Shown: positions 11,519 to 53,142 of the stretch, piece by piece
Layout of the letters: each line of letters begins with the position of its first letter
Position numbering within the stretch: the stretch's first letter is position 1
Assembly (NCBI RefSeq): GCF_006345805.1
Contig: NC_043000.1
Location: 74,090,001 to 74,154,000 of the forward strand
Direction: 5' to 3'
From: Octopus sinensis
Lineage: Eukaryota
DNA length: 64,000 nucleotides
Program-made: the position numbers and the translations under genes
The notes under the pieces: model-generated
The model's database searches: none
Seen by the model: only the letters and a program-made list of their open reading frames with translations
What the model was told of the DNA's origin: nothing

Positions 11519-11531
11519 GGCTTACCTTATA

Positions 11532-14788: not shown

Positions 14789-14798
14789 AACAGACTGG

Positions 14799-27610: not shown

Positions 27611-27666
27611 CAATGAAACTGGACTTGTTTTATTATTACCCACAAAGGGCGAACATAGAGGGTACA

Positions 27667-28053
27667 GGATGGAAGCACTCCGTCGGTAACGACGATGAGG
27701 GTTCCAGTTGATCGGAATCAACGGAACAGCCTGCTCGTGAAATTAACGTGTAAGTGGCTGAGCACTCCACAGACACGTGCACCCTTAATGTAGTTCTCGG
27801 GGATATTCAGCGTGACACAGAGAGTGACAAGGCCGGCCCCTTGAAATACAGGTACAACAGAAACAGGAAGTAAGAGTGAGAGAAAGTTGTGGTGAAAGAG
27901 TACAGCAGGGATCACCACCATCCCCTGCCGGAGCGTCGTGGAGCTTTTAGGTGTTTTCGCTCAATAAACACTCACAACGCCCGGTCTGGGAATCGAAACC
28001 GCGATCCTATGACCGCGAGTCCGCTGCCCTAACCACTGGGCCATTGCGCCTCC
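27667..28053 (-). mobile_element. tRNA-derived SINE inserted in the 3' end of the ORF1-only element
   Basis: Head ggaggcgcaatggcccagtggttagggcagcgg...ggtttcgattccc contains Pol III A/B boxes. Flanked by imperfect direct repeat a(t/c)agaggg(t/g)aca. Confidence 0.88.
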
Positions 28054-28417
28054 ACAGAGGGGACAGTACAATCGGGAAAAAATAAAATTAATGAGATATG
28101 AAGTATGTATAAATGTGGTGTAATGCCCCACCCGATCCCCGAAATCAGGTGGTTACATTTCGTCATTTTTAATTACATTTTACAATATTTTCAAAAATAA
28201 CTAAATACATTTTACAGCATTTCGCAATACATTCGACCGCAATACATTTCAAAAGGGAATTTCCAAAATACATTATCAATTGAATATTTTACAGAAAAAT
28301 TGTTTTCCACAAATTCAAATATAAAGCTTTCATAATACATTTTCAAGATTTCAAAGTACATTTGAAATTAACAAAAGTTTTTTCTAATTCTTTTTTCTTT
28401 TTTTTTTTCCAATAATT

Positions 28418-29904
28418 TTAAATCAGTTCCATTACCTTTCTCAGGTCGTTGTAATTTTCCATCTCTCGTGGGTATCTTAGCAGTCGGCACTTCGCATGCC
28501 TTATTACGTTCACACCGGCGGCATCGATAAACGCATCGGCGCTGTCTTCATGGACCAGTGCACCCGTTTCCCTCCACTCCGTGCCCATCCTGACCCATGA
28601 ATATCCCTCTGTTTCACTTATTAATTCCTCCATCTCCCCACAGTGTCTGTAATGAACCAATGTTCCATAAAATTTATACCTTCTATTTGAACCTATGTTC
28701 TCTTTAGTTTTCCTCTTCGGACCTACTTCTTCTTTACCTTCCTCTCTCAGTTATTCTCTTTCTCTCTTTTTGCTTTCCTTTTCTTTTTCCTTCTCTTGTC
28801 TTTTTGGCTCTTTGTCTGTCGTATGTTCTTTTCCTGTTTTTCTTTTTCTTTTTGTGTAACATCCTTTCCTTTCTCTTGATTCTGTTCCTTCTCTTGTTTT
28901 TTTCCTGTTTTTTCTCTTTCCGTTATTTTACTTTCTTTTTCTTTCTCTTGATTTTGTTTTGGTTCTTTCTCTATTACTTCTCTACCCTGTGGCTTTTGTT
29001 CTTTTTCTATTAATTTCTTCCCTTTGATTTCATTTTTCTTCCGTGTATTGTTATTTCCTTTTACCGTTGTTTCCTTTTCCTTGTTTTCTTTCTCCTTTAG
29101 TGTATTGTTCCTTTCTTCGGGTTCTTTTTCCTTCTCTTCTTTGTTTTCCTCTGCTCTTTCACACTCCGCCATAAATTCGTATAGCGGACATTCTTTTTTT
29201 ATGTGTCCTCTTGTCCCACACAAGTAGCAGTTAGGTTTCCTCCCCTCCACGATTACGCTGGGGGTTTTTCCATCTTCTACTTCTATTTGGAAGGGAATCT
29301 GTTTTATATCTCTGTTTGTGGCAGTCAGCCACATCTCTACCCCGAATCCCTTCCATTTCACTATGTTGGTCTCCTTTATCGACCCAATTTCTATCTCTTC
29401 CTCAGCTGACCCTAGGATGGCTGTTACCAGCCATTCTGTCTTCAATTCTGGGGGTATATTTGGGATTTTGACCCGTACCCCTCTTCTCCCTTTGTAAGTA
29501 GGCCACATGATAAAGTTTTCGGCTCGGAGTACGGTGGTAGCTAGCGAGGCCGCAACTTCCACCGTACCATATTTCTTGCCTTTGCACACAAAGGTTGCCT
29601 TCTTCATTACGTCGTCCAGACATTTTTCGATCTCTTCTATTGCTATTCTTGATAGCTTTCTTGTGATCTTGTCTTGTGTTCTATAAATTATTGTCTTGTC
29701 TTCATTTTCCTCCTTTGCTTCAGCAGGAGGGACCAGTTTCACGCTGTCACCCTCCCTTTCAACGAATTTCTCAAACTCTTTTAGCTGTTCTTTTTTGAAG
29801 AACACTTCTCTTACTGTAAGCGACGTATCGCTTTTCATTGCGGCGACCCCCGCGTAAGTCTCCATGACTTGAGGGTCGGCACACCTTCTACAAAAAGGTT
29901 GCAA
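28418..29904 (-). pseudogene. ORF1 protein of the ORF1-only element (Zn knuckle, K/E-rich region, distinct C-terminal domain)
   Basis: 385-aa ORF plus downstream 80-aa ORF. Homologous to 13290-14658. Confidence 0.8.
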
Positions 29905-30390
29905 CGCGCAGCGGCAAACGCCTCGCGCGATTCAATTTTCAATTTCTATACACAAAAATTACTAACTACTTAACGCAATCAATGAAACTGGACTTGTTTT
30001 ATTAATACTCACAAGGGGCGAACATAGAGGGGACAATACAACCTGATGTGGGGTCAGATTAACGGATGGGATTACAAAAAAGGTGAATTTAAAAATTTAC
30101 AAAAATGACAAAATAGCAAAAAATCGAATGAAGAACAGACCGGAAGACATTACGGATGGAGTGGGAGCGGGTTTAGCTCGGACCCCACGAGCCCCGCCTC
30201 CCCACTGATACTTTGGTTTCGTCTAGTTTTACATTTATGTCGTATCATCCACTCGCAACTTTCGTGCTACATCTTTCCATCGTTCTTCGTACACTCTCTT
30301 AGTCAGGCATTTTCTCTCCAGCCCTATCTTCCTTTTCAGGTGAATGAAGTAATTCATCAAACCAGGGCCGGAGATGAACTTGCCTGACCG

Positions 30391-32943: not shown

Positions 32944-33632
32944 TTTATGATCACTGTAGCTGACCGGCTAAAACTGTGGACACTTAGCTATTTTTCTGTC
33001 TACTTTTCTAATTAGTATCCTATCTAAGTATGACCTGGAAGATCCGTCGCTGTTTGACCATGTCCACAATGGAGCGTTCGGAAATTCCAACCTATAAGGA
33101 TCTGCTAGCTCAAAGCGGCTTAGCAGTTCCAGGAAGCCAATGTTACCTTTTCACGCAATCCAACACAATCTACATCCGCTTTGCAAATTGTGTTAAAGTC
33201 TCCTAGCACAACTAATGAATGCGAAGTACCAAGAAAGTTTTCCAGTTCTCGAAAATAATCACTTTTCCCTTTTTGGTTGGGTGCGTAAATCGCAACCAGT
33301 CTGATAACTTTACCGTTACTGAACGTCAAATCCATGACGACCAGCCTACCTTCTGGGTCTGAAAAAATTAACTTTTTCTCAAAAACCCGGTTTCTTTTTA
33401 ATAGGACCAACACCCCACCCCCACCTGTAGGACTGGCCGGAGAGAAAAAAACTCTCGTAGCCGTCGAACAGCGGGAGTAGACCTCTTGGCCCCTCTAACC
33501 GGGTTTCTGTAGCAACAATAACATCCAAATTACGCGTTGATATCATTAAGGAAGCGACCTTGCTTCCAGCTCGATCCCAGGCCGCGCACATTTAAACAAC
33601 CAACATAAATGTAATCCATGACCTACCTTATA

Positions 33633-34909
33633 TCAGTGGTTCGACTTTTCCTTCTCTTCATTTTTTCCCTCTTTTTCTGGGCCTCGTGGGGGAGTCTGAC
33701 TCAGGCCCTCGAATATATATGGTGATGATATATCCATTCTGAGAGGGCCCACGTCATGAAAAAATTCGGACTTTATCCGTCCGTAATCCTTCCGGCCTAT
33801 TCTATACAATATGAAATCATTTCTCCTTCCAATTTTTTCTACCTTGGCCATAGCTGCCAACACATTACCGAGTCTATTATTTGAGGCCTTAATGGCCATA
33901 AATGAGTTTAAAGTCTCTCTTTTTTTCTTTTGGTTTACTTTCGGAGGGGTGGTTTCAGTTTTTCTTTTTTTCCTAGTGATTTTTGACCACCCCTCCTCAT
34001 TTTTCGTTTCCTCCGCCGCCGGTTCCGCTGCCTCTGTCACCTCCACACCTTCAGCCGTCCCTTCTGGGCCGCCCGGCGCTGCTTCTGGTAACACCTCTTC
34101 TGTTCTTCCACCTGGCTGAGCTGCTTCCTGCGGTTTGGGTTGGCATTCTGCCCTTACATGCCCTTTCTTACCGCAGCCGAAGCACCTCGGCTTTCTGCCC
34201 TCTACAAAGACTGTGACTCCTTCCTCTTCACTGATTTTCAGTGTCTCCGGAATCTCTTCCAGGGTTTGTATCTCTGCCTGGATGGCCATCGTTATACGCT
34301 GCCCCTTCCAACCTTCTTCCTCCCCTACTGTGGCCTGGAGGATGTTTATTTTTTCCTCCAGGCCTACCATAACTGCTGCCACCAGACATGTGGCGTCCGC
34401 TTCTGGCGGAACATTGTTCATTGTTATCCTTGAGGTTCCTTTGCCTCTATACAAGGGGAGGAGAACAATATTCTCCGCTTTCATGGGTTCCATGGATAGC
34501 TTTTTGGCTACTTCCTCCGTCTCAAATCTCACCTCCACTGTGCCGTATTTCTTCCCGCGGTTGATGTACGCAATTTTATCCCATATCGGTTTCAGGCAGT
34601 TTTCCATCTTTTTCTCCTCTATTCTCTGTATAGACCTACTTGTGATGTTGAAAGTCTTGTATATTATTCTTTTTTTTATCAATCTCTTCCTGCTTTTGGG
34701 CATTCGCAACCACCGCTACTTCTGTGCCCTCCTTTATCAAACAGTCTGCGCATTTCTGCAGGTTCTCAGTGTTAATTTTTTCAATTTTCTTCCCAGCTAC
34801 TTCAGAAAATCTTCCAGCCGGTGCTGGGGCTTCCTCTTTCTTCGGCGACACCGCCGGTGATCCTGCATCACTTGACACGGGTGAATAGGAGATGGGGGAG
34901 TCCATCTCC
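33633..34909 (-). pseudogene. Tx1-like ORF1, family A
   Basis: MDSPISYSP start and CFGCGKKGHVRAEC knuckle. Frameshift near 34700. Confidence 0.85.
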
Positions 34910-35153
34910 GAAAACTGGCTTAACAAGCCCCTAGCACAACCGCTACAAAAAGTTTTTGGTTTTGCAAGCCTCAAATGCAGCAATAATGATAGTTTTTCCC
35001 CCACGGAGGGGGGAACACCAACACGAAGCCCTCGCACGAAGGCTGATTACAATAATTGTACAACAACAGACAATACAAAGTCAACAGTACTTCAAAAACA
35101 CAGTAGAATATAAAAGAGGAAAATATAATAACTCACTACGCAATGAAAAATGG

Positions 35154-38100
35154 ACTTGTTAGCTCTTATTTCTTTATTCACCATACGGTTATACATATAA
35201 AGACAGAACATCACGAATGATTTTACGTCAATATGTGTTGGGGTCTATTAAAAATTTACAAATGATTATATAATTCGGATGATAGGACATTTTTTACACA
35301 AACAATTTCACAGATGGAATGGGGCGGGCTTACGGACCCCACGAACCCCGCCCCGACACTGATCTTAGGTTTTTTTTTTTCCTTTTTTTTCCGGCTTACC
35401 TCGCATTCATGAGGGTCCTTTTACTCACAACATTCTTCCATCTTTCATCGAACACTTTCTTACTCAGGCCCCTCCTCTCTAGTTCTATTTGTCTTTTTAG
35501 GTGGAATTTAAAATGTTCCACCAGACTAGAACCAGAGATGAAGTTGCCTGCTATCACCCCTTTCATCCTCGTCTTCCATACTGCCTGTTTCGCAATTGAA
35601 ACCACAGAGAGAAAACAATTCTTACCTTCTTTCGTTAAGAAATTCGGTGGGTCAATTTTTACAATGGATTCAGTCGATAGCTGTACTCTTCCTCCACTTG
35701 ACAACAGTTGTTCGGCAAAAACCCACATGTCTGCCACTTCCGAGCACTGCACGACCGCGTGCGAGACGGTTTCCCTGTCTCGCCCACACCGCGGACAGGT
35801 CGGGCTGACTTGGCCACCGTGCCTTGCGAGTTTATCCCGAACAGGTAAGGCTCCTCGGTAACACTGCCAAGCTAAGGACTTCTGAAAATTATCCAGGGTC
35901 CTCGGCCCAAATGTACGTTGGAACAGACTGGCCAGCTGATTATCGTCGAAACCTAGGGTTTCCCCTAACGTATCATCGCAACCGGCCTCTACAAACCTTC
36001 TATAGAAAACAGCGGTAGACCCACTGCCGCAGGCATTGCCCGAGCGACGGAATAGTCGGAGTACCTTGCGACACTCCGTATACCATGTATCCAACTTCGA
36101 TCTGCGATTATACCAGGCTTCCCGTCCACCAAAACTGGTGAACTTGGGAAGCATCTGTTTCGCCAACGGAGACCACACCCGTTCACCATCCAGATGGAGC
36201 CACAGATGCCTTAACCTCAGCGCATTTCTGCGCATCATTAGCCACGGCATCCCTAGTCCACCCTTTAACGGTTTTTGACAACAAACAGAGCGTCTCACAA
36301 GTGGTTTCGAGTTCTTCCACAAAAAGTGAAAGAGCTGTCTTTCCAACTTGGTCAACCACGAATCCGGACAAGGCACGACGGTAAGGCGGTAGGTGATCAC
36401 CGATGCGATGAACGCATTGGCTACCTCCGCCCTACCTTTCAGGGATAACCACCGCCAAGACCAGGTCTTGGCTACTGCAGCCACCCTGCTCGATACCTCG
36501 CTCCAGTTCTTCTCTATTTGGAGGTCTGGTCCGAACCAAACCCCGAGCAACTTAATCGGACCCTCCGTCCAACGTCCCACGACGCTGTCTGAAGGCATCG
36601 ACTTGCCTCTCCAGGTGCCGAGCTGCAAGCCGACTGACTTTTCGCGATTAACTTTTGCTCCTGTCACCGTCTCGTAAACTTCTATGGCCTTGCCTACTTT
36701 ACGTAGGAGGTCCACTTCAGTCACGATGATAGTGATGTCATCCGCGTACGCCGAAACCGACATTCCACGACCTGGCTGCCTCGGGATGCCACTCAGTTTT
36801 CGCAGCAGCGGCTCGAGAGCCACTACATACAAAAGCGGGGAGGGTGGGCATCCTTGACGAACCGAGCATTTGACTCTGAACGGCTTAGAAATAAAGCCGT
36901 TCACCCGAACTACCGAGTCGACGTTATCGTACATTTCGATGATCCACCTGAGGAAGCCAAGACCCAGGCCGAACTGAGCCAGAACAGACACCAGGTAATG
37001 ATGGTTGACCCTATCGAAAGCTTTTGATTGGTCTAAATGGACCACTGCCCCTCCCTTGCCGGGATCGCTATTAATTCCCTCTATAGTGTATCTAATTAGA
37101 TGGAGATTATCCCGAATGGACCTGCCAGGTACGGCACACGTTTGTGCCTTCCCTATTAGTCCATCCGCGACACGCGCCAATCTGTTCGATAACACTTTGG
37201 CCAAAATCTTCAGCTCTGCGTTAAGCAGAGTGATGGGCCTAAAATTATCAATGACATACCCCTTGTCCGAGTCCTTCCTGATTAGTGTCACCACTCCCCG
37301 GCGCCCAGATCTGGGAATAAACCCATTCTGCTGCCAGTTCGCGTAGACGTTCGCCAGTAAGTCCCCGAACAAGTCCGGCATACTTTTATAAAGCTCGTAG
37401 GGTAGACCATCCAGTCCTGGCGCCTTACCCGCGCCGCAGTCAGCCATGGCCTCTATTACTTCCCCAGGCGTGATCGGCTCCTCAATACACTTCGCGTCCT
37501 GCTCCGAGAGGCGCGGTAGCCCGTCAAGGAGGTCCGTTAGGTCCCTCCTCCTATCCGGTCCGCCGCTCCCCCCAAAGAGCCGGGCGAAGTGGTCCTGAAA
37601 AGCTTCACACATCTCCTCGGGCTCGTCTATCAACTTACCTTGTTGGTTCGTCAAAGATCGAATTGTGGCATCGTTGCCACGTTGGGCTTCCACCACTCGG
37701 GCCCATCTTGCGGCATTAATTCCTTCGCTCCCCATTGCACGTTGTCTAGCCCTGACAATGCAACCCATGTGTTTGGCTTCGAGGTGCTGGTTCAAAACCA
37801 GTCTCTTGACCTTCACCTGGGCTGCCGTGCCAGTTCGCATTGCTTCCTCTAAGTCCTTAACTAGTGCTGATTCCCTTCTAGCCTCTCTAGCTACTAGATC
37901 TATACTATATCTAATGGACTCATATCTGATGGCTCGCTTGAGGGCATACCACCATTTGTTGTTAATTATGGTTCCGGTCAAAGCCCTCTGAATCATTAAC
38001 CTTATCCTGTCACTGTACTCCTTAATCGCCAAAAGGGACGTATTAAGTTTCCAGTAACCAGGACCTCTATTCGTCTTATCTATGTCTAGCCTACAGGTGA

Positions 38101-38992
38101 CCATCTTGTGGTCACTGGAGCTGACCATGTGGAGCTGTGGACTCCTAGCTAGTTTCTTATCTACTTTTCTAATTAATATCCTGTCTATGTATGACTTGAT
38201 AGATCCGTCGCTATTTGACCATGTCTACAATGGAGGGTTCGGATGTTCCAGTCTATATGGATCTACCAGCTCGAAACGTCTTAGTAGATCCTGGAACCAA
38301 GCATTTCCTTTCCTATCTGTTCGCGAGCCCTCACAGTCTACCCGCACATCGTAGACTGTGTTGAAGTCTCCTAAAACAACTAAAGGATGCGATGTACTCA
38401 GAAACTTTCCAAGGTTCCGAAAATAATCACTTTGTTCCCCTTGACTGTGGGGTGCGTAAACCGCAACCAGCCTGATTGTCTTACGACTACTGAACGTCAA
38501 ATCAACGACGACCAGTCTGAAAAAATCAACTTTTTCTCAGAAACCCGGTTCTTTTTACACTGGACCAACACACCGCTTCCGCCGGACGAACGGCTCGGAG
38601 AGATAATTCCCTCGTAACCGCCGAGCAGCGGGAGCAGATTTCTTTGCCCCTTTAATCAGGTTTCTGTGGCAACAACATCTAAATCTCGTGACCTGATGTC
38701 ATTTAGGAGGCGCCCTTGCTTCCAGTTCGACATCAGGCCACGTACATTTATACACCCTACATAAATACGAGACATTACCTACCTTTTAATATAAACATCG
38801 TATAAACATCGTGCAAGTCGAGACGCGGACCTCTGATGTCTTTTGGGTATTCCTCATGTATAATGTTGTAATTTAATCTGTCGATTTTACACACTTCTAC
38901 ATTTTTGAGCAATACCCTGTAAGTTTGAATTTTTTCTGCTGTTGGGGCTTCATTAATAAGTTTCACCAACCTATCGTTATCTTTGTTTATTT
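35154..38992 (-). mobile_element. Tx1-like family B, 5'-truncated within ORF1
   Basis: Highly similar to 22418-26100. Confidence 0.9.
35396..38128 (-). CDS. Tx1-like ORF2 RT portion, 910 aa open (EN N-terminus disrupted)
   Basis: SDH, GYWKLN, RQGCP, YADD and C-terminal CCHC. Confidence 0.9.
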   Translation of the reverse strand: MVSSSDHKMVTCRLDIDKTNRGPGYWKLNTSLLAIKEYSDRIRLMIQRALTGTIINNKWWYALKRAIRYESIRYSIDLVAREARRESALVKDLEEAMRTGTAAQVKVKRLVLNQHLEAKHMGCIVRARQRAMGSEGINAARWARVVEAQRGNDATIRSLTNQQGKLIDEPEEMCEAFQDHFARLFGGSGGPDRRRDLTDLLDGLPRLSEQDAKCIEEPITPGEVIEAMADCGAGKAPGLDGLPYELYKSMPDLFGDLLANVYANWQQNGFIPRSGRRGVVTLIRKDSDKGYVIDNFRPITLLNAELKILAKVLSNRLARVADGLIGKAQTCAVPGRSIRDNLHLIRYTIEGINSDPGKGGAVVHLDQSKAFDRVNHHYLVSVLAQFGLGLGFLRWIIEMYDNVDSVVRVNGFISKPFRVKCSVRQGCPPSPLLYVVALEPLLRKLSGIPRQPGRGMSVSAYADDITIIVTEVDLLRKVGKAIEVYETVTGAKVNREKSVGLQLGTWRGKSMPSDSVVGRWTEGPIKLLGVWFGPDLQIEKNWSEVSSRVAAVAKTWSWRWLSLKGRAEVANAFIASVITYRLTVVPCPDSWLTKLERQLFHFLWKNSKPLVRRSVCCQKPLKGGLGMPWLMMRRNALRLRHLWLHLDGERVWSPLAKQMLPKFTSFGGREAWYNRRSKLDTWYTECRKVLRLFRRSGNACGSGSTAVFYRRFVEAGCDDTLGETLGFDDNQLASLFQRTFGPRTLDNFQKSLAWQCYRGALPVRDKLARHGGQVSPTCPRCGRDRETVSHAVVQCSEVADMWVFAEQLLSSGGRVQLSTESIVKIDPPNFLTKEGKNCFLSVVSIAKQAVWKTRMKGVIAGNFISGSSLVEHFKFHLKRQIELERRGLSKKVFDERWKNVVSKRTLMNAR

Positions 38993-40628: not shown

Positions 40629-41355
40629 TGTACAGTCACCGGAAGTAACTTGCACGGACACCGGAAATACATCTGCCATCATCAGAGAAAACAAAGCAAA
40701 TACCCCCAGCGACTTGCCTGACCTTTCATTGGACAAAAGCTACCTACCTACCTACCTGGCTAAACATCACTGCTGATATTTTTGTATAAATAGACATCAT
40801 AAATCGCTGTAAAGGCAGTTGGCTTTTTGGCACTCGACTGATGTAAATCGTGTCCCTCTCGCCTGCCACGCTCGCCACTCACGCCGCCTCGAACCTTTGT
40901 ACTGCTATTTCACGCCTGAAATAAATCGCTGGATAAACTTACACCTCTTGTCTGCTCCAGTTTTGCTGATTACGACCACAGTCCTTTTCAGGGCTAATTC
41001 AAGTCTGATCTGAATGCGATAACAGTCCTTTTTAGGACTACTCTCAGATCCGATCTAATTGCGATAACAGTCCTTTTTAGGACTATTCTTGGATCGATCT
41101 AATTGCGATAACAGTCCTTTTTAGGATTACTCTCAGATCCGATCTAATTGCGATAACAGTCCTTTTTAGGACTATTCTTGGATCGATCTAATTGCGATAA
41201 CAGTCCTTTTTAGGATTACTCTCAGATCCGATCTAATTGCGATAACAGTCCTTTTTAGGACTATTCTTGGATCGGATCTAATTGCGATAACCGTCCTTTC
41301 AAGGGCTACCCTCAGATCAGACCAGAAGTAGTGGCCAAGAACCATACCAGCTACA
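40629..41355 (+). repeat. 5' LTR with ~45-bp tandem repeats
   Basis: Matches 45795-45960 plus 52707-53142. The gcgataac-containing unit occurs 7 times here and 4 times in the 3' LTR. Confidence 0.93.
40785..40820 (+). promoter_or_regulatory. Putative LTR core promoter (TATA plus initiator)
   Basis: TATAAATA at 40785 and GCAGTT with its A at 40817, a 32-nt spacing. AATAAA at ~40920. Confidence 0.55.
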
Positions 41356-41357
41356 AT

Positions 41358-41370
41358 TGGTGACCCCGAC
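41358..41370 (+). promoter_or_regulatory. Primer binding site, tRNA-Trp type
   Basis: TGGTGACCCCGAC two nt after the LTR, complementary to the GTCGGGGTCACCA 3' end of tRNA-Trp. Confidence 0.8.
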
Positions 41371-41404
41371 AACGAATCAAGCGAACAGCATATCAAGAAT
41401 CAGC

Positions 41405-42204
41405 ATGGACACGCTAAAACCAACAACAGAGGCCGATATACCAACCACGCAAGCAGCTTTAACCATGAAGGTCCCGGTTTTTTGGTCCAACGACCCAGCC
41501 CTGTGGTTCGTCCACATAGAAGCACAATTCGCCGCGAATAGAATCAAGCACGCGAATAGAATCAAGCACCGCCAGGCACGGTGTCGTACGAAGCTTTCCG
41601 CAAGGAATTAATAATGCGAACTACCGCATCACAGCAGAGACGACTCAACCAACTCGTATCTGCAGAAGAGTTGGGGGACAGAAAACCGTCCCAACTGCTG
41701 CGTAAAATGAGACAGCTGATGGAGGGCCAACCGCTGTTAGAAGAGGTCCTGAAACGGCTTTTTCTACAGCGCCTGCCCTTACCAATGCAGGGCATTCTGG
41801 CGTCGACGAACGACACAGCAACCCCGGAGGAATTTGCGCATGTCGCAGATAGAATCGCTGAGGTGTCAAACCCCTTTTCTTCTGTGGCACAAATCAACCA
41901 TCGGACGAACCCTTTCGAAGCGTCCTCAGACTCTACCTCCGAGATTGCAGAGCTGCGAGCTATGATCAGAGAGCAGGCTGGTCAAATTAAAGCCCTCACA
42001 AACAAGCTAGAAAACTGGACCTTGGAAACACACCGGCGGCGCAGCAACAGTTCATCAAGATCCACTCACCGTCGAAGATCCAGAAGTCCCAGTCAAAATC
42101 GTGTGTCTGGAAACATCTGCTGGTATCACGCAGAATTCGGCGCACGGGCATCTAGGTGCAAGGCCCCGTGCTCTTTTCTGAATACCACCCAGGGAAACGG
42201 GTAG
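41405..42204 (+). pseudogene. Gypsy gag, disrupted
   Basis: PVFW..DPALWF..IEAQF, LGDRKPSQLLRKM, CWYHAEFG..A.RC..PC. Confidence 0.88.
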
Positions 42205-45200
42205 ACCAGGGCCTTGCGACGACGTTCACCCCTGGTACTGAGAAAAAAAATCGTCTGTTTTTTATTAACGACCAAGCGACGGGCATCCGCTATCTCGTGG
42301 ATACAGGAGCCCAGGTTAGTGTTATTCCTGTTTCACTAGTCTCGGGCAAACGACATCCAACACCGTCCTTTCTGCAGGCAGTGAACCGATCATCAATTCC
42401 GACTTTCGGTGAGAAATCACTGACCCTGAATCTAGGCCTGAGGCGTCGTTTCCAGTTCATTTTCATCGTGGCAGACCTACCGATTCCTATCTTAGGAGCC
42501 GATTTTCTCCACCACTTCAACCTTCTGGTGGACATGAAGAACCGGAGGCTTATTGACACCACCACAAACCTCACTGTGAGAGGTATATTTACCACGCAAC
42601 CGACAGTGAGCCCTGTAATCTGTCAGTCAGAGCCTTCGTGTTACAACAGCATACTCCAGAAATATCCAGACATCACTCGCCCGGTATGTAAAGATGGACC
42701 CATTAAACATCGTATCACACATCACATCGAGACACGGGACCACCCACAGCCGCCCGACCAAGGAGACTGCCTCCAGACCGATTGCGAATCGCCAAACAGG
42801 AATTTCAGCACATGCTGGACCTTGGAATCATTCGCCCTTCCTCCAGCAACTGGTCTGCACCTCTACACCTTGTTCCCCAAAAATCAGAGAACGACTGGCG
42901 ACCATGTGGGGATTATCGTGCACTCAACAATACCACAGTACCCGATAATTACCCTGTACCTCACTTGCACGATTTTTCTGCCTCTCTGCAAGGCGCACGC
43001 ATCTTTTCTAAGATAGATTTGGCGCGGGCATATAACCAGATACCTGTGGAGCCTGCTGATATTCCAAAGACGGCAATCACAACACCGTTCCGTTAATTCG
43101 AATTTCTGCGAATGCCGTTCGGTCTGCGCAACGCTGCACAAACTTTTCAACGGTTCATTGACACCGTATTACGTGACCTACCTTTTGTGTACGTGTATAT
43201 CGACGATGTACTAGTAGCAAGTACTTCTAAGCAAGAACACGAGAAGCACTTGGATCTTCTGTTCCAACGTTTGGCCGAGTACGGCATCATCATCAACCCA
43301 AGCAAGTGCGTTCTCGGCGTTCCTTCACTGTCCTTTCTCGGGCACATGATTGATAAAGACGGTATTCGTCCACTTCCTGAGAAAGTAGACGCTATCCGCA
43401 ATTTTCCAGCACCTACATCACTTCGGAAACTACGTGAATTCCTCGGTTTGGTTCATTTTTATAGGCGTTTCATCCCTCATTGTGCTGACGCAGCCCGACT
43501 CCTCACGGACCTTCTTCGCAACCGGACTCGGAAAAATGAAGACATAACGTTGAACGAGGAAGAATTAACATCTTTCAACGGTCTGAAAGAAATGCTGGCA
43601 AACGCTTCCATGCTCGTTTTCCCCAGGTCTGGCGCTCCTCTTTCGCTGCTAGTGGACGCATCAGACATGGGGGTTGGAGGCGTTTTGCAACAATATGTCG
43701 ACGACGTTTGGCAACCCTTATCCTTCTTTTCTAAGCGGTTGCAACCCACTAAAACCAAATATAGTACGTTCGGCCGTGAACTCTTGGCAACCTACCTTTC
43801 AGTGAAGCATTTTCGTCACATGCTCGAAGGATCGGATTTCGTAATCTACACGGACCATAAACCACTAGTTTATGCGTTCCGTACCAAACCGGATCGACAT
43901 TCACCGAGAGAACTTCGCCACTTGGACTTTGTCTCCCAATATTCAACCAATATTCGGCATATCAAGGGATCAGACAACGTAGCAGCTGACGCTCTGTCCC
44001 GAATCCAGCTGAATGCAATACATGTGGATTCAGGCATCGACCTTCATCAAATTGCAGCTGACCAAGAGACTGACGAAGAGTTTATCAAACTCCGAGATTC
44101 GCCATCCCTCAAGTTTCAGCAAGTTCCCATTCGTTCTTCTCCGGGACAAATTTGGTGCGACATTTCTACTGGTCATGAACGACCGTACGTACCACAGATG
44201 CATCGACAACAAGTGTACGGCACCTGGTCAGATGGTTGCTCCCATCTCTCCTCAGGACGTTCCAGACCCAGGATCATACGTACACCGACTTCGTCAATAC
44301 ATGTCTCACCTTGCCCCTGCGAGCACCCGCCAACAGAACACGAACACACATGTACCTGCAGACATTAGTGATTGGACGCACGTTTTTGTTAGAAATGACA
44401 CCATCTCCACTAATTACACTGTTTGTCTCAGCCGGGAATCCGGGCTACACAGAAACTCATTTCTGCTCGTTTTGTGTGGACCAACATTAACAATGACGTG
44501 TGCGACTGGTCCAGGAGCTGCATTGCCTGCCAGAAATCCAAAGTCCACAGACACATCAAAACGCCACTCGGCACATTCGCGCAACCTGATGCACGTTTTC
44601 AGCATGTGCATATCGACATCGTCGGACCTTTACCATCATCACAGAACTGCACTCACTTGCTCACCTGCATTGATCGTTTTTCTATAAGTGATACCTCAGC
44701 GGAAACGGTGGCTAAAACTTTGGTTTTACACTGGGTATCACGTAATGGCGCCCCAGCGAATATAACAACGGACAGAGGACGCCAATTTGATTCCCATCTC
44801 TTCAGGGAACTGACTCGTCTGTTAGGATGTAAACACATCCGCACAACAGCTTATCACCCGCAAGCTAATGGTCTTGTGGAAAGATTCCATCGTCAATTGA
44901 AAGCTGCAATAAAGGCGTACCCAGACAAGACCCATTGGTTTGAATACCTGCCACTCATCCTTCTTGGCATCCGTTCCACCGTTAAGGAACAATTTGGACA
45001 CACACCTGCAGAATTAGTGTACGGCACCTGGTCAGATGGTTGCTCCCATCTCTCCTCAGGACGTTCCAGACCCAGGATCATACGTACACCGACTTCGTCA
45101 ATACATGTCTCACCTTGCCCCTGCGAGCACCCGCCAACAAAACACGAACACACATGTACCTGCAGACATTAGTGATTGGACGCACGTTTTTGTTAGAAAT

Positions 45201-45476
45201 GACACCATCTCCACTAATCTTCAACCTCCATATTCTGGCCCTTACCGTGTCCTAGAAACACACCCAAAATATTTTGTCATCGATCAAAATGGTAAACAGA
45301 ATTCTGTCAGTGTGGACAGATTAAAAAAAGCCATCATGGACACGATTACGGTTTCTACGCCAGAAACTCCAGCAGCTTGCATTCCCAGCAAACCACCTGT
45401 TTCATCTCCAGTCACAAGAAGTGGACGACGTGTCCATTGGCCCGCCAAGTTGGCACAATACGTGAAATATCGTTAA
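42200..45476 (+). pseudogene. Gypsy pol (protease, RT, RNase H, integrase), frameshifted
   Basis: [53 protein letters not shown]. Confidence 0.92.
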
Positions 45477-45794
45477 AACCGAGTTTCACAAGCATGCTTC
45501 TTGCGAAACATTCCTATATTGTTTGTTTCTAATCTTTCCTGCACCATTTGCTCATGTTGTCATTGTCACGAAAAACATTATTTATTACAAACATTATTTA
45601 TTACCGGTAGTTTCTCTGCCCGTGGGACTTTTTGTCACGCAATCCACAGGCAGACCAACCCAAATCCAACAGACTCATTCATCATTTTGTAGTTCATTTT
45701 TATCTGTTAATATATATATATATTTTCTTTTCTCTGACTCATCACTGTACGATTTGTCGCTCTTTTGTTGTACAAAAGATCTGGCAGAGAGCTA

Positions 45795-45960
45795 TGTACA
45801 GTCACCGGAAGTAACTTGCACGGACACCGGAAATACATCTGCCATCACCAGAAAAAACAAAGCAACTACCCCCAGCGACTTGCCTGACCTTTCATTGGAC
45901 AAAAGCTACCTACCTGCCATTCTATTGGACACTGGCTAAACATCACTGCTGTAAACATCA
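45795..45960 (+). repeat. 3' LTR, 5' portion
   Basis: tgtacagtcaccggaag matches 40629. Preceded by purine-rich ggcagagag. Confidence 0.9.
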
Positions 45961-47277
45961 CTGCAGTAGCCAAGACCTGGTCTTGGCAGTGGTTATCCCT
46001 GAAAGGTAGGGCGGAGGTAGCCAATGTGTTTATCGCATCGGTGATCACCTACCGCCTTGCCGTCATGCCTTGTCCGGATTCGTGGTTGACCAAGCTGGAA
46101 AGACAGCTCTTTCACTTCTTGTGGAAGGGCTGGAAACCACTCGTGAGACGCTCTATTTGTTGTCAAAAACCGTTAAAGGGTGGACTAGGGATGCCGAGGC
46201 TAATGATGCGCAGAAATGCGCTGAGGTTAAGGCATTTGTGGCTCCATCTGGATGGTGAACGGGTATGGTCTCCGCTGGCGAAACAGATGTTTCCCAAGTT
46301 CACCAGTTTTGGTGGACGGGAAGCCTGGTATAATCGCAGATCGAAGTTGGATACATGGTATACGGAGTGTCGCAAGGCACTCCGACTATTCCGTCGCTCG
46401 GGCAACGCCTGCGGCAGTGGTTCTACCGCTGTTTTCTATAGAGGTTTTGTAGAGGCCGGTTGCGATGATACGTTAGAAGAAACCCTAGGTTTCGACGATA
46501 ATCAGCTGGCCAGTCTGTTCCAACGTATATTCGGGCCGAGGACCCTGGATAATTTTCAGAAGTTCTTGGCTTGGCAGTGTTACCGAGGAGCCTTAATTGT
46601 TCGGGACAAACTCTCAAGGCACGGTTGGCCAAGTCAGCCCGACCTGTCCGAGGTGTGGGCAAGACAGTGAAACCGTCTTGCACGCGATCGTGCAGTGTTC
46701 GGAGGTGGCAGATATGTGAGTTTTTGCCGAACAACTGTTGTCAAGTGGAGGAGGAGTACAGCTATCGACTGAATCCATTGTAAAAATCAGCCCACCGGAT
46801 TTCTTAACGAAAGAAGGTAAGAATTGTTTTCTCTCTGTGGTTTCAACTGCGAAACAGGTAGTATGGAAGACAAGGATGAAAGGAATGATAACAGGCGACT
46901 TCATCTCTGGTTCTAGTCTGGTGGAATATTTTAAATTCCACCTGAAAAGACAAATAGAACTAGAGAGGAGGGGCCTGAGTAAGAAAGTGTTTGATGAAAG
47001 GTGGAAAAATGTGGTGAATAAAAGGTCCTTCATAAATACGAGATAGGCCGTAAAAGAAAAAGAAAAAAACATATGGTCATGTGTCGTGGCGGGGATCGTG
47101 GGGTCCGTAGACCCGTCCCACTCCATTTGTAAATTTGTCCAAGTAATTGTATCATCATTCGAAAATTGTATAATTATCATCCAATTTTTAATCGACCCCA
47201 AAACGCATTTTAATGTAAAAATCATTCGTGATTGTTTTGTCCTCTCTGTGTAGCCCTTTATGGGTAATAAAGAAAAA
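45961..47277 (+). mobile_element. Tx1-like family B, 5'-truncated
   Basis: ORF2 C-terminal pieces 46026-47046. 3' UTR ends aataaagaaaaa. Confidence 0.9.
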
Positions 47278-47296
47278 GCAGTTGGCTTTTGGGCAC

Positions 47297-50200
47297 ATGA
47301 TATACTGCGGTGAGTTATTTATCTGTCTGTTTTTTAATATTTTGAGAACGAATCTGTAAGTGTTGAACTTTTGTTGAAAATTGCTGTTTGAACTTTGAAC
47401 GTCTGGTGTTTAACCAGAAAAATATTGTTATTCCCCTCCGTAAGGAGGGGAAAGTGCTGTGCGTTGTAGCATAACATAACACAAAAAACAAAAAAAAAAT
47501 TTTTGAAAATGAACAAAGAAAATATTTTGTCTGAAAAAATGTTTGAAACACTATCTGACGAAGGTTCGCCTTCTAGAGAAACTGTAGTAGGTTCGCCTAC
47601 ATTGAAAGTTGTTAAAAGTTCGTCTTTAAAAGAAACTGTAATAGACTCGCCCAAATTGAAAGTTGTTGAAGGTCCGCCTTCTGGTAAAGCTGTGAAAACA
47701 GCCAAAGTTGCTGAAGGTTCGCTTTCTGGTGAAGCTGTGAAAACAGACAAAGTTAGTGAAGGTTCGCCTTCCAAAGGAAAAAGTGAAACAAAAACTTACA
47801 TCTTCGCAGCCGCCGCTGGAAGAAAAACTGAAGAAATCAAAATGGAAGAGATCGATTTCGAAAATTATAAAACTATGTTCACAAGGGAGAGGAACAATAT
47901 AAAAGCAACCCTCCCACAAGAAATTAAAGACAGTACTCTAAAAAGAATAATAATATATAAATCATATATTATAAAAGAAAAGAAAATTGAGAAAGTGTCG
48001 AAGGAACAGGCGGAAAAATGCCTTCAACCAATATGGCGCGATGTAGACTACGTGAGGTGGGGGAAAAAGTACGCCACAATAGCGGTGTACTTCAAAGAGG
48101 AAGAAATGGCTAAAAAGCATTCACTAACCCCGATCAAAACCAGCGACATAATCCTTCTACCTTCATATCTGGGGCGAAGAACATCCAAAATACGGATAGA
48201 AGATATTCCCCCAGAAATAGAATTGAAGTGGTTATTTTCAGCCCTATTAATAGGGCTGGAAAAGAAAATAAATGTAATAAACATCACTAAGATCCAAAAA
48301 GAAAACTGGAGAGGCTAGACGCTGCAAATAACAGTACAGGCGGCCCCAGAAACTCTGGAAGAGGTCCCGGAGAACATCAATTTCGACGAGGAAATAAACT
48401 TGCGGGTGGTGGTGGAGGGGCGAAAGCCGAGATGCTACGACTGTGGCGAAAAGGGCCACATCCGTGTGGAATGCCCCACCCGCAAGAAAGAGGAAGATAA
48501 AAGAAGGGCAGAAGAAGAGCAAAGAGACGGAGGGAACAAAACAAAAGGAAGATGAAAATGCCTTCACGCTGGTGAGGCAAAAGAAAACACCCAAAAGAAA
48601 GAACGATGACGTAAACCCACCCATCCCATGTACAAACAAAAAGAAAACAAACACACAGGGGGAAAATCTACCCCACCCAACCACAAAAAAAAGAAAAAAA
48701 GAGAAGACCCCCAGCCCAACCCGAACCACCCCCACCCCCCAGTGCCGAGCAATTCCCTTCCCTCCCAAACTACTCCCCGTGTTCCCCCCATCATACTCCC
48801 CGCTGTCCTCCCCATCACCCCCACAAAGCCCCAAAAAAGAAAATAATAGAAATCGAGACAGTATTCGTCTCTATAAACAAAGCAAATGACAGGTTAACAA
48901 AACAAATAGACGATATATCAACGGCACACAAAATCCAGACACATAGGGTACTCCCCAAAAATGTCGATGTTTACAAAATGGACAGGATGAATTTTAATAT
49001 TATAAGAGAGGAGTGACCGGGGGACATTAATGGTCCGCGACTCGACCTTCACGAGCGGACTTCCCCCCATGACCAACAGAAAAGAAAAACAACTAAAAGG
49101 TAGGTGATGTCTCGTATATATGTAGGGTGTATAAATGTACGTGGCCTGATGTCGAACTGGAAGCAAGGGCGCCTCCTAAATGACATCAGGTCACGAGATT
49201 TAGATGTTGTTGCCACAGAAACCTGATTAAAGGGGCAAAGAGATATGCTCCCGCTGCTCGGCGGTTACGAGGGAATTATCTCTCCAAGCCGTTCGTCCGG
49301 CGGAAGCGGTGTGTTGGTCCAGTGTAAAAAGAACCGGGTTTCTGAGAAAAAGTTGATTTTTTCAGATCCAGAAGGTAGACTGGTCGTCGTTGATTTGACG
49401 TTCAGTAGTCGTAAGACAATCAGGCTGGTTGCGATTTACGCACCCCACAGTCAAGGGGAACAAAGTGATTATTTTCGGAACCTTGGAAAGTTTCTGAGTA
49501 CATCGCACCCCTTAGTAATTTTAGGAGACTTCAACACAATCTGCGATGCGCGGGTAGACTGTGAGGGCTCGCGTACAGATAGGAAGGAAATGCTTGCTTC
49601 CAGGATTTACTAAGACGTTTCGAGCTGGTAGATCCATATAGACTGGAACATCCGAACGCTCCATTGTGGACATGGTCAAGCAGCGACGGATCTTCCAAGT
49701 CATACATAGACAGGATACTAATTAGAAAAGTGGATAGAAAACTAGCTAAGAGTCCACAGCTCCACATGGTCAGCTCCAGTGACCACAAGATGGTCACCTG
49801 TAGGCTAGACATAGATAAGACGAATAGAGGTCCTGGTTACTGGAAATTTAATACGTCCCTTTTGGCGATTAAGGAGTACAGTGACAGGATTAGGTTAATG
49901 ATTCAGAGGGCCATGACCGGATCCATTATTAACGACAAATAGTGGTATTCCCTCAAGCGAGCCATCAGATACGAGTCTATTAGGTATAGTATAGATCTAG
50001 TAGCTAGAGAGGCTAGAAAGGAATCAGCACTAGTTAAGGACTTAGAGGAAGCAATGCGAACTGGCACTGCGGCTCAGGTGAAGGTCAAGAGGCTGGTTTT
50101 AAACCAGCACTTCGAAGCCAAACACATGGGTTGCATTGTCAGGGTTAGACAACTTGCAATGGGGAGCGAAGGAATCAAGGCCGCAGGATGGGCCCGACTG

Positions 50201-52706
50201 GTGGAAGCCCAACGTGGCAACGATGCTACAATTCGATCTTTGACGAACCAACAGGGTAAGTTGATAGACGAGCCCGAGGAGATGTGCGAGGCTTTTCAGG
50301 ACCACTTCGCCCAGCTCTTAGGGGGGAGTGGCGGACCGGATTGGAGGAGGGGCCTAACGGACCTCCTCGACGAGCTTCCGCGCCTCTCAGAGCGGGACGC
50401 GAAGTGTAGTGAGGAGCGGATCACGCCTGGGAAAGTAATAGAGGCCATGGCTAACTGCGGTGCAGGTAAGGCGCCGGAACTGGATTGTCTACCCTACGAG
50501 CTTTACAAGAGTATGCCGGACTTGTTCGGGGACTTACTGGCGAACGTCTACGCGAACTGGCAACGGAATGGGTTTATTCCCAGATCTGTGCGTCGGGGAG
50601 TGGTGACACTAGTCAGGAAGGACCAAAACAAGGGGTATGTCATTGATAATTTTAGGCCCATCACTCTGCTTAATGCGGAGCTGAACATTTTGGCCGAAGT
50701 GTTATCGAACAGATTGGCGCATGTCGCGGATGGACTAATAGGGAAGGCACAAACGTGTGCCGTACTAGGCAGGTCCATTCAGGATAATCTCCATCTAATT
50801 AGATACACTATAGAGGGAATTAATAGTGATCCCGGCAAGGGAGGGGCAGTGGTCCATTTAGACCAATCAAAAGCCTTCGATAGGGTCGACCATCATTACC
50901 TGGTGTCCGTTCTGGCTCAGTTCGGTCTGGGTCTTGGCTTCCTCGGGTGGATCATTGAAATGTACGATAACGTCGACTCGGTAGTTCGGGTGAACGGCTT
51001 TATTTCTAAGCCGTTCAGAGTCAAATGCTCGGTTCGTCAAGGATGCCCACCCTCCCCGCTTTTGTATGTAGTGGCTATTGAGCCGCTACTGCGAAAGCTG
51101 AGTGGCATCCCGAGGCAGCCAGGTCGTGGAAAGTCGGTTTCGGCGTACGCGGATGACATCACTATCATCGTGACCGAAGTTGACCTCCTACGTAAAGTAG
51201 GCAAGGCCATAGAGGTATACGAGACGGTGACAGGAGCAAAAGTTAATCGTGAAAAGTCAGTCGGCTTGCAGCTCGGCACCTGGAGAGGCAAGTCGATGCC
51301 TCCAGACAGCGTCGTGGGACGTTGGACGAGGGCCCGATTAAGTTGCTCGGGGTTTGGTTCGGATCAGACCTCCAAATAGAGAACTGAGGCGAGGTATCGA
51401 GCAGGGTGGCTGCAGTAGCCAAGACCTGGTCTTGGCGGTGGTTATCCCTGAAAGGAAGGGCGGAGGTAGCCAATGTGTTTATCGCATCGGTGATCACCTA
51501 CCGCCTTGCCGTCGTGCCTTGCCCGGATTCGTGGTTGACCAAGCTGGAAAGACAGCTCTTTCACTTCTTGTGGAAGGGCTCGAAACCACTTGTGAGACGC
51601 TCTATTTGTTGTCAAAAACCGTTAAAGGGTGGACCAGGGATGCCGTGGATAATGATGCGCAGAAATGCGCTGAGGTTAAGGCATCTGTGGCTCTATCTGG
51701 ATGGTGAACGGGTGTGGTCTCCGTTGGCGAAACAGATGTTTCCCAAGTTCACCAGTTTTGGTGGACGGGAAGCCTGGTATAATCGCAGATCGAAGTTGGG
51801 TTCATGGTACACGGAGTGTCGCAAGGCACTCCGACTATTCCGTCGCTCGGGCAATGCCTGCGGCAGTGGTTCTACCGCTGTTTTCTATAGAGGGTTTGTA
51901 GAGGCCGGTTGCGATGATACGTTAGAAGAAACCCTAAGTTTCGACGATAATCAGCTGGCCAGTCTGTTCCAACGTATATTCGGGCCGAGGACCCTTTTCA
52001 GAAGTCCTTGGCTTGGCAGTGTTACCGAGGAGCCTTAATTGTTCGGGACAAACTCTCAAGGCACGGTGGCCAAGTCAGCCCGACCTGTCCGAGGTGTGGG
52101 CAAGACAGGGAAACCGTCTTGCACGCGATCGTGCAGTGTTCGGAGGTGGCAGATATGTGAGTTTTTGCCGAACAACTGTTGTCAAGTGGAGGAGGAGTAC
52201 AGCTATCGACTGAATCCATTGTAAAAATCAGCCCACCGGATTTCTTAACGAAAGAAGGTAAGAATTGTTTTCTCTATGTGGTTTCAACTGCGAAACAGGT
52301 AGTATGGAAGACAAGGATGAAAGGAATGATAACAGGCGACTTCATCTCTGGTTCTAGTCTGGTGGAATATTTTAAATTCCACCTGAAAAGACAAATAGAA
52401 CTAGAGAGGAGGGGCCTGAGTAAGAAAGTGTTCAATGAAAGGCGGAAGAATGTTGTGAGTAAAAGGTCCCTCATGAATACGAGATAGGCCGAAAAGGAAA
52501 AAAGAGAAAAAAAACATAAGGTCAAGTGTCGTGGCGGGGTTCGTGGGGTCCGTAGACCCGCCCCATTGTCTAGTTGAATGTCTTGTCATCCGAAAATGTA
52601 TAATCATCATTAAATTTTTAACTGACGCCAAATGCATAATTATGTAAAAATCATTCGTGATTGTGTTGTCTGTATTTGTTGAACAGAAATGGTGAATAAA
52701 GAAAAA
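47297..52706 (+). mobile_element. Tx1-like family B, full-length, with 19-bp TSD
   Basis: ORF1 ~47503-49105 and ORF2 ~49107-52487, both disrupted. TSD gcagttggctttt(g/t)ggcac at 47278-47296 and 52707-52725. Confidence 0.92.
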
Positions 52707-53142
52707 GCAGTTGGCTTTTTGGCACTCGACTGATGTAAATCGTGTCCCTCTCGCCTGCCACGCTCGTCACTCACGCCGCCTCGAACCTTTGTACTGCTAT
52801 TTCACGCCTGAAATAAATCGCTGGATAAACTTACACCTCTTGTCTGCTCGTCACTTCAACTACTGTTTTCGTCTGTCCAGTTTTGCTGATTACGACCACA
52901 GTCCTTTTCAGGGCTAATTCAAGTCTGATCTGAATGCGATAACAGTCCTTTTTAGGACTACTCTCAGATCCGATCTAATTGCGATAACAGTCCTTTTTAG
53001 GACTACTCTCAGATCCGATCTAATTGCGATAACAGTCCTTTTTAGGACTATTCTTGGATCGGATCTAATTGCGATAACCGTCCTTTCAAGGGCTACCCTC
53101 AGATCAGACCAGAAGTAGTGGCCAAGAATCATACCCGCTACA
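52707..53142 (+). repeat. 3' LTR, 3' portion
   Basis: Matches 40815-41355. Confidence 0.92.

What the first reader, a model, noticed from the sequence alone, without database searches (positions are those of the whole stretch)
45940..52730. Tx1 copies hit the initiator position of an LTR promoter twice: possible TSS-targeting retrotransposon
Seen: the intact 5' LTR provides the empty site, with TATAAATA at 40785 and GCAGTT (A at 40817). In the 3' LTR two family-B copies both end exactly before GCAGTT, in the promoter's sense orientation. One has a 19-bp TSD, and the other replaced the TATA-containing segment. The only sequence shared with the array junctions is CAGTY, which resembles the invertebrate Inr (TCAGTY). 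A TATAAAA also abuts the upstream end of the minus-strand array (38992-38998), though that is weak evidence in AT-rich DNA. Inference: these LINEs may target Pol II transcription start sites and borrow the resident promoter, which would explain the same-orientation stacking.
Basis: partly seen in the sequence, partly recalled or inferred. Interest (0 to 1): 0.8.

Follow-up and report, generated by a model that had tools for sequence, protein, structure and literature searches.

The report
Retrotransposon parking behind TATA boxes
In a probable octopus genome, one family of jumping genes has inserted again and again, facing forward, about 30 bases after a TATA-like box in several unrelated transposons, which is the predicted start of transcription, and it likely uses the promoter it lands on to make its own RNA.

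Summary
Observation confirmed: two L1/Tx1-type LINE copies in a Gypsy 3' LTR end at GCAGTT, 30 nt after TATAAATA; one has a 19-bp TSD, the other lost the TATA segment. The site is a hot spot: 8 of 40 LTRs found are interrupted there and nowhere else in the 331-bp query, at loci with unrelated flanks. CAGT is not the rule: it is out of register in the array (whose target is a Helitron) and absent from other targets. What is shared is TATA spacing. Close subfamilies end 28-30 nt after a TATA-like box in four unrelated repeats (a fifth inferred), always sense; background 0.5-0.7%. A sister lineage uses +37-40. Exceptions: one target at +46, one copy at +52, and 0 of 14 dispersed copies have TATA in register. 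Some full-length copies carry 5' leaders from other targets, which supports promoter borrowing. No TSS was mapped, and tethering to the initiation complex versus sequence/RNA-end homing plus selection is unresolved. Tx1 families targeting LTRs are published; I did not find the TATA-register rule in print. The scan noted similar patterns on other genomes (unchecked). New variant; interest 0.7.

The parts
40629..41355 (+). Intact 5' LTR of a Gypsy-type LTR retrotransposon (TG...CA); the empty target
   Evidence: internal region has protease, RT, RNase H, integrase
40785..40792 (+). TATA box TATAAATA, first T 30 nt before the insertion junction
   Evidence: present at -31/-32 from the CAGT A in 21 of the 22 empty LTRs that could print (30 loci given)
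40815..40833 (+). Empty insertion site (GCAGTT..., predicted TSS at about 40817) and the 19 bp that are duplicated
   Evidence: TSS predicted from TATA spacing, not mapped
40920..40941 (+). AATAAA and probable poly(A) site, i.e. the end of the LTR R region
   Evidence: sequence; one contig of a run guessed to be RNA has a 21-A loose end at 40941
41356..45794 (+). Gypsy internal region (PBS at 41358, gag, pol; broken frames)
45795..45953 (+). U3 part of the 3' LTR; the TATA-containing ~33-37 bp are lost at the join
45961..47277 (+). LINE copy 1 (family B, 5'-truncated: end of ORF2 and 3' UTR)
47278..47296 (+). TSD copy between the two LINEs (one mismatch to the LTR)
47297..52706 (+). LINE copy 2 (family B, full-length; ORF1 about 47510-48550, ORF2 about 49108-52490 with endonuclease and RT, both with stops/frameshifts)
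52707..53142 (+). TSD copy (52707-52725) and rest of the 3' LTR (R-U5)
8508..38991 (-). Head-to-tail array of related LINEs and ORF1-only derivatives (junctions at 35167, 29996, 27627, 22431, 16568, ~14803, ~13051, 8507)
8322..8507 (-). 3' end of a non-autonomous Helitron (hairpin, CTAR end), the array's target T2; its TATA-bearing upstream part is missing in this window

Best explanation
These L1/Tx1-type LINEs insert in sense orientation 28-30 bases after TATA-like boxes of other transposons, at the predicted transcription start, likely because something anchored at the TATA promoter sets the nick position, and they are likely transcribed from the captured promoter. Shown: the register, the orientation, 13-21 bp TSDs, head-to-tail stacking, target-derived sequence at both ends of copies lying elsewhere. 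Inferred: the endonuclease nicks the template strand at about -2..+1 of a promoter marked by TBP/TFIID or by the opened start region; read-through RNA ends in a few target bases that pair with the nicked DNA and prime reverse transcription; a transcript that starts at the site begins with the duplicated bases, so the end of a full-length cDNA can anneal to the top-strand overhang and give a clean full-length join; a new copy enters the duplicate next to the TATA box and pushes older copies downstream. Subfamily preference for one promoter family would come from these RNA tags and from varying endonuclease loops.
For: LTR site T1: 9 LINE insertions and 1 SINE at 8 loci with unrelated left flanks, from two subfamilies 16-21% apart in ORF1. 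Offsets from first T of the box to the 3' junction for lineage B: T1 30; T2 Helitron 28; T3 28, 29; T4 28, 28, 29, 29; T5 29 (inferred); a B-like copy 29 after TATATGAAG; T7 26 after CATAAAA. The six target cores share only 16-36 of 92 positions outside the box. Empty sites exist for T1-T5. Background for TATAAA/TATTTAA/CATAAAA starting in a fixed 4- or 6-nt window: 0.48% / 0.72% of 399,880 positions. Sister lineage D keeps a different offset, 37-40, on T2, on variant T2' whose downstream sequence is replaced, on T4 and on a third Helitron subfamily. Of 39 matches to the B 5' UTR, 24 of the 25 whose left flank is non-LINE target or host LINE body have a TATA-like box within 55 nt upstream; the other 14 are array-internal. 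B subfamilies cluster by target on an ORF2 tree of 58 copies. Leaders: full-length D copies at unrelated sites begin with T4 or T2 sequence from about TATA+38 (L315, L433, L436, C18 array); a B copy at T4 begins with LTR-like CAGT..TTGGCTTTT. Promoter-like context: poly(A) end 20 nt after AATAAA in the LTR, splice-donor-like motifs 150-170 nt after the T4 and T5 boxes. Precedent for TBP/TFIIIB-positioned insertion at Pol III genes: Ty3 and the LINE TRE5-A (PMC5911963, passages).
Against: No TSS was measured at any target. A prospective test gave a mixed result: for T8 (another Gypsy LTR) TATAAA lies 42-45 nt before the junction in 8 of 14 relatives that are only ~80% alike, offset 46. One B copy at T4 lies at +52, a D subfamily at +70, and the only T5 copy with both junctions has its right join near +58. 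14 of 40 matches to the B 3' end are dispersed, 5'-truncated copies, and 0 of 14 dispersed B and D copies with a TSD have a box at -26..-38. Full-length D copies and even arrays occur at sites without a box in register (L315, L433, L436, C18, C9c), one full-length B copy sits inside another LINE's ORF2. A SINE with the same tail has a box in register at 1 of 14 TSD sites. The motif set and window were fixed after seeing T1-T4. T2, T3 and T6 are Helitron-like and may not be fully independent. Age polarity within arrays is mixed on the tree. No single-copy host gene promoter was found hit.
Confidence: 0.5

Rival explanations
1. Sequence and RNA-end homing plus selection. The element has no promoter of its own; only copies that by chance landed just behind a multicopy promoter are transcribed, and each such lineage then homes to further copies of that repeat through target-derived RNA ends and a retuned endonuclease. 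TATA spacing is then a survivor's pattern and no transcription factor positions the nick.
For: Dispersed copies join through microhomology to read-through tails (AAGAG(C) for the T2 subfamily, CAATT for D, CAGT for T1). A D copy with a T4 leader entered a SINE at a T4-like sequence with no TATA in register. Repeated insertion at unique TATA-less sites (C9c, C18). Shared amino-acid changes among 17 B copies are denser in four endonuclease loops (5 of 22 columns against 25 of 1107; p=2e-4, loops chosen after seeing the alignment). Tx1L endonuclease is sequence-specific on naked DNA (PMC1950540, passages); RNA-target annealing is proposed for SART1 and R1Bm (PMC7265360, passages).
Against: Selection for transcription would accept any position downstream of a start, yet B sits within a 3-nt window (28-30) on four unrelated targets and D keeps 37-40 when the downstream sequence changes. 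The endonucleases of subfamilies with wholly different targets are still nearly identical, including the beta-hairpin loop.
Confidence: 0.35
2. ORF2p itself reads the TATA-like DNA about 30 bp from the nick (a protein ruler on naked DNA), without host factors.
For: Fixed offsets per lineage (28-30 for B, 37-40 for D); tolerance of several box variants. R2 proteins recognise DNA far upstream of the nick (recalled, no call).
Against: TATAAA occurs at 0.3% of 4-nt windows, millions of times in this genome, yet full-length copies are confined to a few promoter-like repeats; no extra DNA-binding domain was found in ORF2p.
Confidence: 0.08
3. The endonuclease recognises the initiator-like CAGT sequence.
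For: CAGT at the junction in T1, in one dispersed T1-subfamily copy, in the nested copy and near the T8 junction.
Against: No CAGT at T3, T2' or T5 junctions; out of register at T2; the LTR variant GGTAGTT was still hit. 157 CAGTY on the + strand of this window alone.
Confidence: 0.05
4. One old insertion was spread by the LTR element or by segmental duplication.
For: A few loci are duplicates (L029/L030, L167/L169/L170, L214/L215).
Against: Unrelated flanks at the 8 occupied LTR loci, different 5' joins and TSD lengths, copies 3-21% apart, insertion in one LTR only of paired elements.
Confidence: 0.02

Closest known systems
Tx1-clade LINEs that target transposons: Tx1L in Tx1D, Tx1-Mar in Mariner-N4_AMi, Tx1-8_Crp and Tx1-4_AMi in LTR retrotransposons, Tx1-9_AMi in Harbinger (PMC4494074; passages and section 15; supplements not readable)
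   Same: APE endonuclease + RT LINE, insertion at fixed sites in other transposons including LTR elements, tandem copies around a TSD, SINE passengers, proposed transcription from flanking target DNA
   Different: The text ties each family to one target sequence and gives no TATA or start-site rule; here closely related subfamilies switch between unrelated targets while keeping the TATA offset, in sense orientation. Whether the crocodilian LTR sites also lie at the start site is in supplementary figure S4, which I could not see.
TRE5-A of Dictyostelium and Ty3/Tj1 of yeasts (PMC5911963; passages)
   Same: Position set relative to the transcription machinery; TRE5-A is an APE LINE whose ORF1p binds TBP, Brf1 and Bdp1; Ty3 lands within 1-4 nt of the start
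   Different: Those are Pol III genes; TRE5-A sits 44-54 bp upstream in opposite orientation; Ty3 is an integrase element. Here TATA-type, apparently Pol II, promoters of transposons, sense orientation, no tether shown.
R1/R2/SART1 site-specific LINEs (PMC7265360, passages; R2 co-transcription as cited in PMC4494074)
   Same: Dependence on target transcription and RNA-target annealing at the ends
   Different: One conserved target each (rDNA, telomere); no promoter register, no rapid target switching
HeT-A/TART telomeric arrays (recalled; PMC1636488 seen as a search listing only)
   Same: Head-to-tail arrays, 5' tags from upstream DNA, ORF1-only partners
   Different: Promoter comes from the upstream sibling, insertion is at chromosome ends without TSD

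Membership tests
L1 group of non-LTR retrotransposons (L1/Tx1) | ORF2 with N-terminal APE endonuclease, RT and C-terminal zinc-binding region | tested here: met
   Intact 1129-aa ORF2 of a B copy: Exo_endo_phos, RVT_1, zf-RVT; best solved relative human L1 ORF2p E 8e-67 against R2 7e-24
L1 group of non-LTR retrotransposons (L1/Tx1) | ORF1 with CCHC zinc knuckle | tested here: met
   zf-CCHC in 4 of 4 B ORF1 proteins at E 4e-4 to 7e-4, just under the curated cut-off; over the cut-off in two window ORF1s
L1 group of non-LTR retrotransposons (L1/Tx1) | A-rich 3' end, 5' truncation, TSD of about 10-25 bp | tested here: met
Tx1 clade | RT groups with Tx1L/Keno/Kibi/Koshi rather than with L1 on a tree | not tested
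Tx1 clade | Target preference for a repeat | tested here: met
   23 of 40 matches to the B 3' end lie at five repeats
Transcription-factor-tethered elements (Ty3, TRE5-A type) | Fixed distance to the promoter across unrelated targets | tested here: met
   28-30 nt on T1-T4, with exceptions at +46, +52
Transcription-factor-tethered elements (Ty3, TRE5-A type) | Element protein binds TBP or another initiation factor, and promoter mutation abolishes targeting | not testable with these tools
   Needs bench work
Transcription-factor-tethered elements (Ty3, TRE5-A type) | Targets are Pol III genes | tested here: not met
   No tRNA in the window, no Rfam family at the sites; targets are LTR, Helitron and other repeats
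Helitron (target T2) | 5' TC, 3' hairpin and CTRR end | tested here: met

The most novel reading that the evidence does not exclude
A LINE lineage that uses the RNA polymerase II pre-initiation complex (TBP/TFIID or the opened start region) as a ruler, nicks at the start site of any active TATA promoter, and lives without a promoter of its own by parasitising those of other transposons: the Pol II, non-LTR counterpart of Ty3, retargetable to new promoters by its RNA ends.
Probability: 0.35. Interest if true: 0.85.

Novelty: new variant of a known kind. Interest (0 to 1): 0.7.

Why it matters
Site-specific LINEs are thought to find targets by endonuclease sequence preference; transcription-factor-guided insertion is described for Pol III genes. 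A LINE that keeps a fixed TATA offset while switching among unrelated promoters would add a targeting rule, explain how target-specific families change targets quickly, and show a promoterless life cycle in which one transposon both exploits and disables others at their start sites. Intact ORF1/ORF2 copies exist, so the question is directly testable, and a start-site-directed, RNA-tunable insertion enzyme would interest gene-writing work.

Tried and rejected
tRNA or snRNA as the target: none in the window. CAGT as common signal: rejected. TATAAAA at 38998: not part of the target. 'Type 2' Helitron upstream sequence: turned out to be the same Helitron with a ~300-bp insertion at the site. RNA evidence for the start: no RNA holder listed, only contigs of runs guessed to be RNA; contigs read through U3 and cannot show a start; a second read-laying on an empty T4 site gave no result, so no TSS evidence exists for any target. 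ORF1p core with a TBP core from an unnamed close relative: no verdict. Age polarity in arrays: mixed. An internal Inr+DPE promoter: AGACG sits at +28 from a TCATT/TAATT in the ORF1-only family C but not in the five other 5' ends inspected by eye; left as a lead. Distant relatives: 80 metagenome loci (best segments 23-53% identity) were mostly collapsed contigs; 4 of 29 checked had a flanking direct repeat and none a box in register, uninformative. The look-up of contigs that encode the ENA/NCBI relatives was closed, so their flanks were not seen. Two of the 40 B 3'-end matches (L021, L025) and the left flank of the C9 arrays were not resolved. Literature searches that found no TATA/TSS rule for such LINEs: (open-licence library only; Repbase Reports, Kojima and Fujiwara 2004 and Christensen 2000 not held or not read).
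Full report
Setting. The window is G000:C4:74090001-74154000 of a 2.72-Gb animal genome. The nearest named relative of the LINE ORF2 is from Argonauta hians at 58% identity, so the host is probably an octopod. The window holds a Gypsy-type element (40629-53142; protease, RT, RNase H, integrase) and a minus-strand LINE array (8508-38991).

Observation. TATAAATA starts at 40785 and GCAGTT at 40815 in the intact 5' LTR. In the 3' LTR a truncated copy (about 45961-47277) and a full-length copy (47297-52706) both end before GCAGTTGG; the 19-bp TSD has one mismatch; about 33-37 bp with the TATA box are lost left of the truncated copy. The copies differ by 5.0%. One contig from a run guessed to be RNA carries a poly(A) loose end at 40941, 20 nt after AATAAA, which fits a U3-R-U5 layout with the start near 40817 but does not map the start.

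Recurrence at the LTR site (T1). Of 41 matches (40 distinct LTRs), 7 stop at the TSD end and 2 begin at the TSD start, giving 8 interrupted LTRs; nothing else interrupts the 331-bp query apart from one contig end. Fetched loci show 9 LINE insertions (window 2, L091 2, L092, L094-L097) and one SINE with a LINE-like tail (L093) at this site. Left flanks are unrelated, apart from two 3' LTRs that share the Gypsy interior; the LINEs form two subfamilies 16-21% apart in ORF1, with members 3-9% apart. These are independent events.

The array's target is a Helitron (T2), not an Inr. The array's 3' flank is the hairpin-CTAR end of a non-autonomous Helitron with hundreds of candidates. Empty copies have TATAAAG 28 nt before the B junction and 37 nt before the junction of the sister lineage D; CAGT is 44 nt after the box. 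LINE tails stand at the site in 6 of 30 Helitron loci. A Helitron variant (T2') with a ~300-bp insertion has different downstream sequence and no CAGT, yet D ends at +38 there (5 of 30 loci).

Further targets. A search with the B 5' UTR gave 39 matches. In 25 the left flank is not a LINE tail; 24 of them have a TATA-like box within 55 nt upstream in sense orientation, and one lies inside another LINE's ORF2. The other 14 are array-internal, 12 with T1-T3 junction sequence and 2 (a duplicated pair) unresolved. Targets: T3, Helitron-like, TATAAAAA, junction +28/+29, no CAGT, 17 of 20 loci empty; T4, an unclassified repeat of 3 kb or more, TATTTAAA, +28, +28, +29, +29 and once +52, LINE tails at the site in 8 of 24 loci; T5, an inverted-repeat element, TATAAATT, +29 inferred from the left join of L219 and the tails of dispersed relatives, box at the same offset in 12 of 15 empty copies; T7, CATAAAA, +26. 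The cores share 16-36 of 92 positions outside the box. Background for the relaxed motif in a fixed 4- or 6-nt window is 0.48% or 0.72%; 4 hits in 5 or 6 targets gives p of about 1e-8, but motif and window were chosen after the fact. On an ORF2 tree of 58 copies B subfamilies group by target at only a few percent divergence, so target switching is recent.

Results against a strict ruler. T8, another Gypsy LTR, was a prospective test: TATAAA is there in 8 of 14 relatives, but 42-46 nt before the junction; its first CAGT is at +28; the relatives are only about 80% alike. A D subfamily uses +70 in T4; the one T5 copy with both joins has its right join near +58. Of the 40 matches to the B 3' end, 23 are at T1-T5, 14 dispersed and 5'-truncated, 1 nested, 2 unresolved. 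None of 14 dispersed copies with a TSD (9 B, 5 D; five TSDs read by eye) has a box at -26..-38. Full-length D copies and arrays occur at sites without a box in register. The SINE has a box in register at 1 of 14 sites with a TSD, out of 59 copies with a 3' end.

RNA ends. Dispersed copies join through short matches to read-through target bases: AAGAG(C) for the T2 subfamily, CAATT for D, CAGT for T1. Full-length copies away from their usual target start with target sequence: L315 has a clean 18-bp TSD at an unrelated site and begins with T4 sequence from about TATA+38; L433 begins with T2 sequence from about +38; L436 and the C18 array carry T4 leaders; L101 at T4 begins with LTR-like CAGT..TTGGCTTTT. 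This is the best evidence that the RNA starts in the target promoter. T4 and T5 show splice-donor-like motifs downstream.

Proteins. An intact 1129-aa ORF2 and 449-aa ORF1 exist in a T3 array. ORF2 is of the L1 type; placement in the Tx1 clade was not tested against references. Endonucleases of subfamilies with different targets are nearly identical, with shared changes concentrated in four surface loops that align to L1 loops near the active site (that these loops touch DNA is recalled, apart from the beta-hairpin, PMC1950540).

Mechanism. I favour positioning by something anchored at the TATA promoter (0.5), because two lineages keep their own offsets across unrelated sequence, over pure sequence/RNA-end homing with selection for transcribed copies (0.35), which explains the off-target copies well; the two can act together. 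Direct reading of TATA DNA (0.08), CAGT recognition (0.05) and hitchhiking (0.02) are weak. Promoter borrowing is common to the first two (about 0.75).

Known systems. Tx1 families that target transposons, LTR elements among them, are published (PMC4494074, passages and section 15; supplements unreadable and possibly relevant). TBP/TFIIIB-positioned insertion is known for Ty3 and the LINE TRE5-A at Pol III genes (PMC5911963, passages). An octopus repeat annotation lists 13 recently active L1-Tx1 families and has no occurrence of 'target', 'nested' or 'promoter' (PMC13282606, passages). PMC6719617 and PMC8869645 (passages) add nothing on this. My searches found no TATA or Pol II start-site rule for such LINEs. 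Earlier unchecked notes of this scan describe the same pattern on other genomes; I saw them after forming my reading and did not check them.

Verdict. Real, recurrent, site-specific insertion at the predicted start site of transposon promoters; new variant of a known kind; interest 0.7.

Noticed in passing
L093:5482-5714 and many loci: A very common ~230-bp SINE ends in the same tail as these LINEs (CCCC..GTGGGTAATAAAGAAAT) and is probably their passenger; one copy sits at the LTR site, 28 nt after the TATA box.
   Followed up: partly
window 13052-16553 and 27628-29985 (minus): ORF1-only derivatives of 1.7-1.9 kb stacked in the array; family C has AGACG at +28 from a TCATT/TAATT, a possible Inr+DPE promoter.
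   Followed up: partly
L031, L032, L034 (Helitron variant T2'): A ~300-bp insert that looks like a LINE ORF1 scrap (judged by eye) sits at the LINE site and was amplified with the Helitron; it became a new target.
   Followed up: partly
window 40966-41321 and 52886-53108: LTR U5 holds a 44-45 bp tandem repeat whose copy number differs between the two LTRs; U3 differs by 4.7% but R-U5 by 0.7% between the LTRs, suggesting conversion or recombination.
   Followed up: no
window 44212-44414 and 45016-45218: A 203-bp piece of the integrase region is present twice at 99.5% identity.
   Followed up: no
window 5769-6677 (minus): Helitron helicase-like N-terminal domain fragment downstream of the array.
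   Followed up: no
L237:1460-1660 (T4) and L412:1440-1620 (T5): Two unclassified repeats carry TATA box, short exon and splice-donor-like motif; T4 is a hot spot for several LINE families and shows many small sequence variants at the site.
   Followed up: partly
L428/L429 (C9) and L426/L427 (C18): Arrays of lineage D at apparently unique sites, every junction a copy of the TSD or of the leader.
   Followed up: partly
L382 (G000:C7757): A compact, more divergent TBP gene on an unplaced contig, possibly from another organism in the assembly.
   Followed up: no
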